This document shows positions 55,466 through 55,547 of a DNA stretch of 64,000 nucleotides, piece after piece. The position numbers and the translations under genes were made by a program. The notes beneath the pieces were generated by a model. The model was not told where the DNA came from. It saw nothing but the letters and a program-made list of their open reading frames with translations, and made no database searches. Source of the stretch: Escherichia coli. Lineage in GTDB: Bacteria > Pseudomonadota > Gammaproteobacteria > Enterobacterales > Enterobacteriaceae. Location: NCBI RefSeq assembly GCF_036507355.1, contig NZ_AP027877.1. The stretch is one strand, 5' to 3'. Numbering within the stretch: position 1 is the first letter of the stretch; each line of letters opens with the position of its first letter.

Positions 55466-55547
55466 CTTCAGATTCGTTTTATAGCGCGAAGTTCCGAACT
55501 AAAGTTTCTGCAAAAGGTAAAAATTTATTGTTCGTCTTTACAAAAGC
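55466..55547 (-). promoter_or_regulatory. degP promoter region: sigma-E promoter plus upstream CpxR-binding GTAAA repeats
   Basis: Minus strand reads GGAACTTcgcgctataaaacgaaTCTGA (sigma-E -35 / -10) and upstream gtaaagacgaacaataaatttttacc with GTAAA-type half-sites. Confidence 0.6.

What the first reader, a model, noticed from the sequence alone, without database searches (positions are those of the whole stretch)
55466..55547. degP keeps its dual envelope-stress promoter (sigma-E hexamers plus CpxR GTAAA repeats)
On the minus strand upstream of degP I can read GGAACTT ... TCTGA with the spacing of a sigma-E promoter, and further upstream gtaaagacgaacaataaatttttacc containing GTAAA-type CpxR half-sites. 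This is the expected arrangement. It is worth noting because nlpE, the Cpx-activating lipoprotein, is also in this window (20374..21084), so both ends of that signalling route are present and apparently intact.
Basis: partly seen in the sequence, partly recalled or inferred. Interest (0 to 1): 0.15.

Follow-up and report, generated by a model that had tools for sequence, protein, structure and literature searches.

The report
Ordinary E. coli degP stress promoter
This is the well-known control region in front of the E. coli periplasmic protease gene degP, intact and typical of most E. coli strains, so it is ordinary rather than a discovery.

Summary
On the minus strand, GGAACTT (55495..55489), a 16-nt spacer and TCTGA (55472..55468) sit 45 nt upstream of the degP ATG (55422). 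This exact pattern occurs once in the window and in 0 of 100 shuffles. The 82-nt segment is identical in 4019 of 5424 complete E. coli genomes. K-12 differs by 2 nt, both in the spacer.

The "CpxR GTAAA repeats" are only partly as described. There is one perfect GTAAA (55541..55537) and one inverted copy (TTTAC, 55521..55517). The direct-repeat partner is ACAAT, a 2/5 match. The published K-12 box GTAAAGACGAACAAT scores low on a 41-site matrix: 7.77 bits, or 6.04 when the degP sites are left out, which is a chance-level score for an intergenic region of this size. Its support comes from the K-12 literature and from conservation: GTAAA-N15-TTTAC is present in 78 of 78 distinct Enterobacteriaceae upstream sequences.

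Directly downstream lies the Rfam HtrA thermometer (55462..55417, 77 bits), which places the start site near 55462. nlpE (20374..21084, minus strand) is intact, but finding it in the same window only reflects normal chromosome order.

Verdict: already known, low interest.

The parts
55489..55495 (-). sigma-E -35 element GGAACTT (about -33..-27 relative to the inferred start site)
   Evidence: Read directly. Part of the only exact GGAACTT-N16-TCTGA match in the window, with 0 of 100 shuffles matching. GGAACTT exact in 60 of 78 distinct Enterobacteriaceae sequences; the remainder are GGAACTA or TGAACTT. Mean identity 0.97. Matches the -35 motif GGAACTTTT of Rhodius 2006 (PMC1312014).
55473..55488 (-). 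16-nt spacer cgcgctataaaacgaa. It contains TATAAA (55483..55478), a possible -10 of an overlapping housekeeping promoter.
   Evidence: 16 nt is the strongly preferred sigma-E spacing (PMC1312014). The spacer is unusually conserved (mean identity 0.80; TATAAA 0.91). K-12 differs here only at 55487..55486 (AG instead of GC). The window allele is the majority in E. coli (4019 of 5424) and is the commonest state across genera.
55468..55472 (-). sigma-E -10 element TCTGA
   Evidence: TCTGA exact in 66 of 78 sequences; the others are TCTTA or TCTCA. Mean identity 0.95. Contains the C described as invariable in sigma-E -10 boxes (PMC1851643).
55462..55462 (-). Inferred sigma-E-dependent transcription start (an A, 5 nt after TCTGA)
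   Evidence: Inference. The Rfam HtrA thermometer model (40-nt UTR plus 2 codons) aligns from exactly this base. In Salmonella the stress-induced htrA transcript has a 40-nt 5' UTR (PMC5602114). A 5/6-nt discriminator and a purine start are the sigma-E norm (PMC1312014). Not mapped in this strain.
55527..55541 (-). Proximal CpxR box GTAAAGACGAACAAT ('degP1'), centred near -72
   Evidence: Identical to the K-12 site listed among 41 known CpxR sites (PMC9600279 Table S1). PSSM 7.77 bits, or 6.04 with the degP sites left out of training. GTAAA and CAAT are invariant in 78 of 78 sequences.
55517..55521 (+). Inverted GTAAA (reads TTTAC on the degP strand), about -59..-55
   Evidence: GTAAA-N15-TTTAC is present in 78 of 78 distinct sequences and is unique in the window. 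It is embedded in A/T tracts, so it may also or instead act as a UP element.
55502..55545 (-). Conserved upstream block (about -83..-40): the CpxR-binding / UP-element region
   Evidence: Mean identity 0.86. The linker just after the dgt stop (55551..55546) has 0.27 and the patch just upstream of the -35 (55501..55496) has 0.39. The boundary at 55545 is sharp.
55417..55462 (-). degP/htrA 5' UTR RNA thermometer (fourU paired with the Shine-Dalgarno region)
   Evidence: Rfam RF02700 HtrA_thermometer, 77 bits against a gathering score of 52, E = 1.1e-16, model positions 1-46 of 46. The predicted fold pairs UUUU with GAGA but is marginal (-3 kcal/mol, z = +0.95), which suits a heat-labile hairpin.
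53998..55422 (-). degP (htrA) coding sequence, 474 aa
   Evidence: NF008189, 935 bits against a cut-off of 720, full length. Annotated as degP in all matching E. coli genomes.
55677..55691 (-). Distal CpxR box GTAAATTACCGTCAG ('degP2'), inside the dgt coding sequence, 255 nt upstream of the ATG
   Evidence: Listed as a known K-12 site. Strong PSSM score, 12.74 bits, rank 7 of 128,000 positions. Not conserved beyond Escherichia and close Citrobacter; third-codon-position identity 0.51 against a 0.48 background.
20374..21084 (-). nlpE, 236 aa, intact. It is an upstream activator of the Cpx pathway and not part of the promoter.
   Evidence: NF007814, 401 bits against a cut-off of 243. The translation has the lipobox LMGC and a CADC motif. 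99.7% identical to annotated nlpE genes.

Best explanation
This is the standard degP (htrA) regulatory region of E. coli, unaltered.

RNA polymerase carrying the envelope-stress sigma factor sigma-E recognises GGAACTT (-35) and TCTGA (-10), separated by 16 nt, and starts transcription at about 55462. Phosphorylated CpxR binds the conserved block upstream of the -35 (about -83 to -40), which holds GTAAA, a degenerate nCAAT and an inverted GTAAA at 10-bp phasing, and raises transcription further. The 40-nt leader then forms a weak fourU hairpin over the ribosome-binding site, which adds temperature control of translation.

Shown here: the sequence elements, their uniqueness in the window, their identity to K-12, and their conservation within E. 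coli and across Enterobacteriaceae. Taken from the literature, not tested here: sigma-E dependence, CpxR binding and the exact start site.
For: Sequence:
- The exact consensus with its spacing is unique in the window; 0 of 100 shuffles match.
- The intergenic region equals K-12 apart from 2 spacer bases.
- The 82-nt segment is 100% identical in 4019 of 5424 complete E. coli genomes.

Conservation across 78 distinct Enterobacteriaceae sequences:
- -35 identity 0.97; -10 identity 0.95.
- GTAAA, CAAT and TTTAC identity 1.00.
- Neighbouring linker 0.27.

Literature:
- GTAAAGACGAACAAT is the listed K-12 CpxR site (PMC9600279 Table S1).
- degP is the most strongly sigma-E-induced gene, 56-fold (PMC2731931).
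- degP is induced 26.6-fold in cpxA24 and 32-fold by NlpE overproduction, falling to 6.4-fold without cpxR (PMC9600279 Table 1).
- degP is one of the active sigma-E promoters in the Rhodius library (PMC3326320).

Start site: the Rfam HtrA thermometer hit starts at 55462, and the Salmonella stress-induced transcript has a 40-nt UTR.
Against: - The CpxR matrix score of the proximal box is weak: 7.77 bits, or 6.04 leave-out, below the known-site mean minus one SD (8.54). A score that high is expected by chance in 14-26% of intergenic regions of this size.
- The second half-site matches GTAAA at only 2 of 5 positions, and the second perfect GTAAA is inverted, unlike the canonical direct repeat.
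- The -10 TCTGA matches the newer TCAAA logo at only 3 of 5 positions.
- CpxR overproduction alone did not induce degP in one study (PMC2731931).
- No sigma-E position-weight matrix could be obtained, so the sigma-E test is a consensus match and not a matrix score.
- Nothing was measured in this strain.
Confidence: 0.92

Rival explanations
1. CpxR does not (only) help the sigma-E holoenzyme. It drives a second, overlapping housekeeping (sigma-70-type) promoter whose -10 is the TATAAA inside the sigma-E spacer (55483..55478) and whose start lies about 7 nt upstream of the sigma-E start (about 55469). The 'dual' control would then be two nested promoters rather than one promoter with an activator.
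For: - The spacer is far more conserved than sigma-E spacers are said to be (0.80 overall, TATAAA 0.91). Rhodius reports very little spacer conservation in sigma-E promoters generally (PMC3326320).
- In Salmonella, whose sequence here is nearly identical, a second htrA start gives a 47-nt UTR. It is produced constitutively at low level, unlike the stress-only 40-nt transcript (PMC5602114), and it maps onto the G of TCTGA.
- From memory, not checked here: Danese et al. 1995 reported that Cpx-mediated degP transcription depends only partly on sigma-E.
Against: - The sigma-70 consensus scan found no promoter in 55300..55700, and there is no recognisable -35.
- The 47-nt start has not been shown in E. 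coli here, nor has it been shown to depend on CpxR.
- Lack of degP induction by CpxR overproduction was attributed to limiting sigma-E (PMC2731931), which favours action through the sigma-E promoter.
Confidence: 0.3
2. Most of the conserved A/T-rich block upstream of the -35 (AATAAATTTTTACCTTTT) is a UP element contacted by the RNA polymerase alpha subunits. Only the leftmost GTAAA is a CpxR contact, and the inverted 'GTAAA' is an accident of a T-tract.
For: - Sigma-E promoters commonly carry A/T-rich UP sequences between -35 and -65, with peaks near -48/-49 and -57/-58 (PMC1312014; PMC3326320).
- The TTTAC lies at about -59..-55, inside A and T tracts.
- The bottom-strand 15-mer GTAAAAATTTATTGT scores only 1.2 bits on the CpxR matrix.
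Against: - TTTAC is invariant in 78 of 78 sequences, including its C, and at a fixed 15-nt distance from GTAAA. UP elements show little position-specific conservation (PMC3326320).
- The two readings do not exclude each other.
Confidence: 0.3
3. The hexamers and GTAAA motifs are chance matches with no function in this strain.
For: The relaxed pattern GAACTT-N15-17-TCNNA is expected 1.2 times per window by chance. The CpxR matrix score is at chance level.
Against: - The exact 12-base pattern has 0 matches in 100 shuffles.
- It sits at the correct distance from degP.
- It is identical to the studied K-12 promoter.
- It is conserved across genera while the flanking linker is not.
Confidence: 0.01

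Closest known systems
E. coli K-12 degP (htrA) promoter: sigma-E dependent and CpxR activated (Lipinska 1988, Erickson and Gross 1989, Danese 1995, Pogliano 1997, De Wulf 2002; cited from memory and through the reference lists seen)
   Same: Same gene, same neighbours (dgt upstream, cdaR downstream), and the same 129-nt intergenic sequence. The -35, -10, spacing, CpxR box and leader are all identical.
   Different: Two adjacent bases in the spacer just after the -35 differ (window CGCG, K-12 CAGG). The window carries the allele found in 74% of complete E. coli genomes and in most other genera; K-12 carries the minority, derived allele.
Salmonella enterica htrA regulatory region (htrAp1/p2/p3 and the htrA fourU RNA thermometer, Rfam RF02700)
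   Same: Near-identical promoter and leader sequence. The thermometer model matches full length at 77 bits. The distance from TCTGA to the ATG is the same (45 nt).
   Different: The three Salmonella start sites (40-nt, 47-nt and 215/449-nt UTRs) have not been shown for this E. coli. The distal CpxR-like box inside dgt differs in its second half in Salmonella.
Canonical CpxR boxes GTAAA-N5-GTAAA (cpxP, ppiA, yccA, psd, etc.)
   Same: A perfect first half-site GTAAA, a position within 100 bp of the start site, and a gene strongly induced by Cpx activation.
   Different: The second half-site is ACAAT. The matrix score is 7.8 bits, against 12.8 on average for known sites and up to 19.3. A second perfect GTAAA is present but inverted, 15 nt away.

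Membership tests
sigma-E (RpoE, ECF group) promoter | -35 motif GGAACTT | tested here: met
   Exact GGAACTT at 55495..55489(-). Motif as given in PMC1312014.
sigma-E (RpoE, ECF group) promoter | -10 motif TCnnA with the invariant C (TCAAA / TCTGA) | tested here: met
   TCTGA at 55472..55468(-). It matches 3 of 5 positions of the TCAAA logo and 5 of 5 of the classical TCTGA form. Conserved in 66 of 78 sequences.
sigma-E (RpoE, ECF group) promoter | -35/-10 spacing of 15-19 nt, with 16 preferred | tested here: met
   16 nt. Preference stated in PMC1312014.
sigma-E (RpoE, ECF group) promoter | 5/6-nt discriminator and a purine start | tested here: inconclusive
   The start is inferred, not mapped. 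An A at 55462 would give a 5-nt discriminator, consistent with the start of the Rfam model and the Salmonella 40-nt UTR.
sigma-E (RpoE, ECF group) promoter | Position-weight-matrix score above the published threshold | not tested
   The published matrices and promoter lists (Rhodius 2006 Table 1; Rhodius 2012 supplement) are not held as text. Only a consensus match and a shuffle test were done.
sigma-E (RpoE, ECF group) promoter | Transcription dependent on sigma-E | not testable with these tools
   Literature for K-12 only: degP induced 56-fold on rpoE overexpression (PMC2731931).
CpxR~P binding site (CpxR box) | Tandem GTAAA-N5-GTAAA direct repeat | tested here: not met
   GTAAA-GACGA-ACAAT: the first half is 5/5 and the second 2/5. 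PSSM half-site contributions are +8.85 and -1.01 bits.
CpxR~P binding site (CpxR box) | Matrix score in the range of known sites | tested here: inconclusive
   7.77 bits (6.04 leave-out), against a known-site mean of 12.76, SD 4.22, minimum 1.97. This is inside the range of known sites but below mean minus SD and at chance level for the region.
CpxR~P binding site (CpxR box) | Identity to an experimentally derived site | tested here: met
   The 15-mer is identical to 'degP1 (htrA)' in Table S1 of PMC9600279, which cites De Wulf 2002.
CpxR~P binding site (CpxR box) | Physical binding of CpxR~P | not testable with these tools
   The primary footprinting paper (Pogliano 1997) is not held.
HtrA 5' UTR thermometer (Rfam RF02700) | Covariance-model score above the gathering threshold | tested here: met
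   77 bits against 52, E = 1.1e-16, full model, at 55462..55417(-).
DegP / NlpE proteins | Equivalog HMM above the curated cut-off, full length | tested here: met
   DegP: NF008189, 935 bits against 720. NlpE: NF007814, 401 bits against 243.

The most novel reading that the evidence does not exclude
The CpxR element of degP may not be a degenerate direct repeat. It may be a 25-bp symmetric unit: GTAAA-N5-nCAAT-N5-TTTAC, three pentamers on one face of the helix with the outer two inverted. It is invariant in 78 of 78 Enterobacteriaceae sequences.

That could mean a non-canonical binding mode, for example two CpxR dimers in opposite orientations sharing the central pentamer. It could be combined with a sigma-70 -10 element nested in the sigma-E spacer, so that Cpx and sigma-E inputs use two interleaved promoters. 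The literature treats the site as a weak GTAAA-N5-GTAAA box.
Probability: 0.15. Interest if true: 0.3.

Novelty: already known. Interest (0 to 1): 0.05.

Why it matters
It matters little. It confirms that this strain has the normal degP control region, so degP should respond to outer-membrane and periplasmic protein-folding stress as in K-12.

Two points may help annotators:
- The experimentally accepted CpxR site at degP is invisible to a matrix scan but stands out clearly in a cross-genus alignment. Matrix scores alone are therefore a poor test for this regulator.
- K-12 carries the minority spacer allele of this promoter.

Tried and rejected
- Sigma-70 promoter and intrinsic-terminator scan of 55300..55700: nothing found. 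There is no terminator after dgt and no strong housekeeping promoter by consensus.
- Attempts to obtain a published sigma-E matrix or promoter list failed. Rhodius 2006 Table 1 and the Rhodius 2012 supplement are not held as text, so no sigma-E PWM score could be computed.
- Attempts to read the primary papers failed. Lipinska 1988, De Wulf 1999 and Price and Raivio 2009 are not held, and Pogliano 1997 has no PMC id in the reference list, so it could not be looked up. The mapped K-12 start site and footprint limits could therefore not be quoted.
- Full-text searches for a stated degP start site found nothing useful.
- The distal CpxR box inside dgt was considered as a conserved regulatory element. 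This was rejected because it is not conserved beyond Escherichia and close Citrobacter, and its third codon positions are no more conserved than background.
- Thermodynamic support for the leader hairpin was sought and not found: the fold is no more stable than shuffles (z = +0.95). Membership of the thermometer family rests on the Rfam model.
- A functional meaning for nlpE and degP sharing the window was considered and rejected. The two lie about 34 kb apart, with many unrelated genes between them, in the usual chromosomal order.

Full report
What is there.

The window is an E. coli chromosomal segment read in the opposite orientation to the K-12 map. On the minus strand, dgt (55552..57069, dGTPase) is followed by a 129-nt intergenic region (55551..55423). 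Next come degP (53998..55422, 474 aa; NF008189, 935 bits against a cut-off of 720) and cdaR.

- GGAACTT at 55495..55489
- a 16-nt spacer, cgcgctataaaacgaa
- TCTGA at 55472..55468
- further upstream, gtaaagacgaacaataaatttttacc at 55541..55516

Is it more than chance?

The exact pattern GGAACTT-N16-TCTGA occurs once on the two strands of the window and in none of 100 dinucleotide-preserving shuffles. Loosened versions do not discriminate. With two mismatches there are 6 matches against 4.1 expected. GAACTT-N15-17-TCNNA gives 1 match against 1.2 expected. The weight therefore rests on the exact match and its position, 45 nt before the degP ATG.

Rhodius et al. give the sigma-E motifs as GGAACTTTT (-35) and (T/C)GGTCAAAA (-10). 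They report a 16-nt spacer as strongly preferred, a 5/6-nt discriminator and a purine start (PMC1312014). The site fits these, with the older TCTGA form of the -10. I could not obtain their matrices or promoter list. No sigma-E PWM score is reported for that reason.

Comparison with K-12 and with E. coli at large.

Over 241 nt the window differs from K-12 W3110 at three positions: two adjacent bases in the spacer just after the -35 (window CGCG, K-12 CAGG) and one base in dgt. The 82-nt segment of the finding is 100% identical in 4019 of 5424 complete E. coli genomes. The K-12 allele (97.6% identity) accounts for most of the remainder. All hexamers, the spacing, the CpxR box and the leader are the same as in K-12. 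RefSeq annotates no feature under the segment.

The CpxR part.

Table S1 of Zhao et al. 2022 (PMC9600279) lists 41 known CpxR sites and includes two for degP, both taken from De Wulf 2002:
- degP1, GTAAAGACGAACAAT, which is window 55541..55527(-), inside the finding
- degP2, GTAAATTACCGTCAG, which is window 55691..55677(-), inside the dgt coding sequence and outside the finding

I rebuilt their matrix from the 41 sites and reproduced their scores of 7.77 and 12.74 bits (their values).

The proximal box is weak. It scores 7.77 bits, against a known-site mean of 12.76 (SD 4.22). It drops to 6.04 bits when the two degP sites are left out of training, ranking 167th of about 128,000 positions. A score that high would appear by chance in 14-26% of intergenic regions of this length. 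All of the score comes from the first half-site: +8.85 bits, against -1.01 for ACAAT.

So the phrase "GTAAA repeats" is loose. The element is one GTAAA, a 2/5 partner at the canonical N5 distance, and a perfect but inverted GTAAA after a further N5 (TTTAC, 55521..55517). Other evidence rescues it.

Conservation across genera.

A scan of one genome per species with the DegP protein returned 80 Enterobacteriaceae loci. The genera include Escherichia, Citrobacter, Salmonella, Enterobacter, Klebsiella, Kosakonia, Kluyvera, Buttiauxella, Mangrovibacter, Atlantibacter and others. These gave 78 distinct 200-nt upstream sequences including the window.

Conservation begins abruptly at 55545, six bases after the dgt stop, and runs to the ATG. 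Mean identity to the window:

| Segment | Mean identity |
|---|---|
| Linker 55551..55546 | 0.27 |
| Upstream block 55545..55502 | 0.86 |
| GTAAA | 1.00 |
| CAAT | 1.00 |
| TTTAC | 1.00 |
| Patch just before the -35 | 0.39 |
| GGAACTT | 0.97 |
| Spacer | 0.80 |
| TCTGA | 0.95 |
| Discriminator | 0.50 |
| Leader | 0.80 |

GTAAA-N15-TTTAC and GTAAA-N5-nCAAT are each present in 78 of 78 sequences. GGAACTT is exact in 60 and TCTGA in 66. This is strong independent evidence that both the sigma-E hexamers and the GTAAA-containing block are functional. By contrast the strong-scoring distal box inside dgt is not conserved beyond Escherichia and its nearest relatives. Its third codon positions are no more conserved than background (0.51 against 0.48).

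The start site and the leader.

An Rfam search of 55300..55800 gave one hit: RF02700, the HtrA 5' UTR thermometer. It lies at 55462..55417(-), scores 77 bits against a gathering score of 52, has E = 1.1e-16 and covers the full model. That model covers the 40-nt Salmonella leader plus two codons. In Salmonella the 40-nt-leader transcript is the stress-induced one. A 47-nt-leader transcript and a long one starting inside dgt are also made (PMC5602114).

By homology the sigma-E start here is the A at 55462, five bases after TCTGA. This matches the sigma-E discriminator preference. The predicted fold pairs UUUU with the GAGA of the ribosome-binding region but is marginal (-3 kcal/mol, no better than shuffles). 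That is what a heat-labile hairpin should look like, but it is not itself evidence.

How it most likely works.

Shown here are the sequence elements, their uniqueness, their identity with K-12 and their conservation. Taken from the literature:
- degP is the most strongly sigma-E-induced gene, 56-fold (PMC2731931).
- It is an active member of the Rhodius sigma-E promoter library (PMC3326320).
- It is induced 26.6-fold in cpxA24 and 32-fold by NlpE overproduction, falling to 6.4-fold without cpxR (PMC9600279 Table 1).

The inference is that sigma-E holoenzyme starts at about 55462, that CpxR~P bound at about -83..-40 boosts this, and that the leader adds temperature control of translation.

Two non-exclusive refinements remain open.

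1. A nested housekeeping promoter. The spacer is unusually conserved and contains TATAAA (55483..55478). The Salmonella 47-nt-leader start would fall on the G of TCTGA. A nested promoter may therefore exist and might be the one CpxR uses. Against this, the sigma-70 consensus scan finds nothing, and failure of CpxR overproduction to induce degP was attributed to limiting sigma-E.

2. A UP element. The A/T tracts around TTTAC lie where sigma-E UP elements sit, so part of the conserved block may be an alpha-subunit contact. The invariance of the C and of the 15-nt distance argues for a sequence-specific protein.

The nlpE remark.

nlpE is at the stated coordinates but on the minus strand; the plus strand has six stop codons. 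It encodes 236 aa (NF007814, 401 bits), has the lipobox LMGC and a CADC motif, and is 99.7% identical to annotated nlpE genes. It is intact. Its presence about 34 kb from degP is simply the usual gene order, and the sensor and regulator genes cpxA and cpxR are not in the window. The co-occurrence says nothing beyond "this is a normal E. coli chromosome".

Verdict.

The feature is already known in K-12 and Salmonella. Interest is low.

Noticed in passing
window 55417..55462 (-): The degP leader is a full-length match to the Rfam HtrA 5' UTR RNA thermometer (RF02700, 77 bits against 52). It adds a translational temperature switch directly after the promoter.
   Followed up: yes
window 55593 (minus-strand A; dgt codon 493, Ala to Thr): A single base in dgt differs from all 5424 complete E. 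coli genomes (no exact match to a 61-mer centred on it) and from all 77 other Enterobacteriaceae sequences at that column. It is either a private missense variant at an invariant alanine or a sequencing error.
   Followed up: partly
window 55486..55487: K-12 differs from the window by two adjacent bases in the sigma-E spacer (K-12 AG, window GC). The window allele is in 74% of complete E. coli genomes and is the commonest state across genera, so the laboratory reference carries the derived minority allele. Any effect on promoter strength is unknown.
   Followed up: partly
window 55677..55691 (-), inside dgt: The second literature CpxR box for degP (GTAAATTACCGTCAG) scores high (12.7 bits, rank 7 in the window) but is not conserved outside Escherichia and close Citrobacter. 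It lies about 47 nt upstream of where the Salmonella 215-nt-leader start would map (about 55637). A TATTAT at 55650..55645 is conserved even at third codon positions (0.88 and 0.95, two positions only).
   Followed up: partly
window 55478..55483 (-): TATAAA inside the sigma-E spacer is conserved (0.91). It could be the -10 of the constitutive promoter that gives the 47-nt leader in Salmonella. No E. coli start-site data were found.
   Followed up: partly
L083 (NZ_AP027854.1, E. coli 2017-19-1CC), locus 1748..2445: One E. coli strain carries an IS1 inserted between the dgt stop and the degP promoter, in the unconserved linker. The conserved promoter block is left intact. This is a natural insertion that respects the footprint boundary.
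   Followed up: partly
loci L078, L024, L055, L013, L028, L045 and others, between TCTGA and ACACAGCAA: Klebsiella, Kosakonia, Mangrovibacter, Kluyvera and others have 6-7 extra bases between the -10 and the conserved ACACAGCAA that begins the E. coli leader (the TCTGA-to-ATG distance is 50-51 nt instead of 45). Their start site, or the 5' end of their leader, must differ.
   Followed up: no
window 57145..57159 (+), 42419 (-), 36007 (-), 18011 (+), 50099 (-): These are the highest CpxR-matrix hits in the window. 57145 GTAAATCTATGAAAA (15.7 bits) lies in the mtn-dgt intergenic region. 36007 GTAAAACCTGGTAAG is the listed 'skp' site. None was examined further.
   Followed up: no
E. coli collection: Three of the 5424 matches to the degP promoter are on records labelled as plasmids, and 2 of 5426 genomes have no match at all. 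Neither was examined.
   Followed up: no
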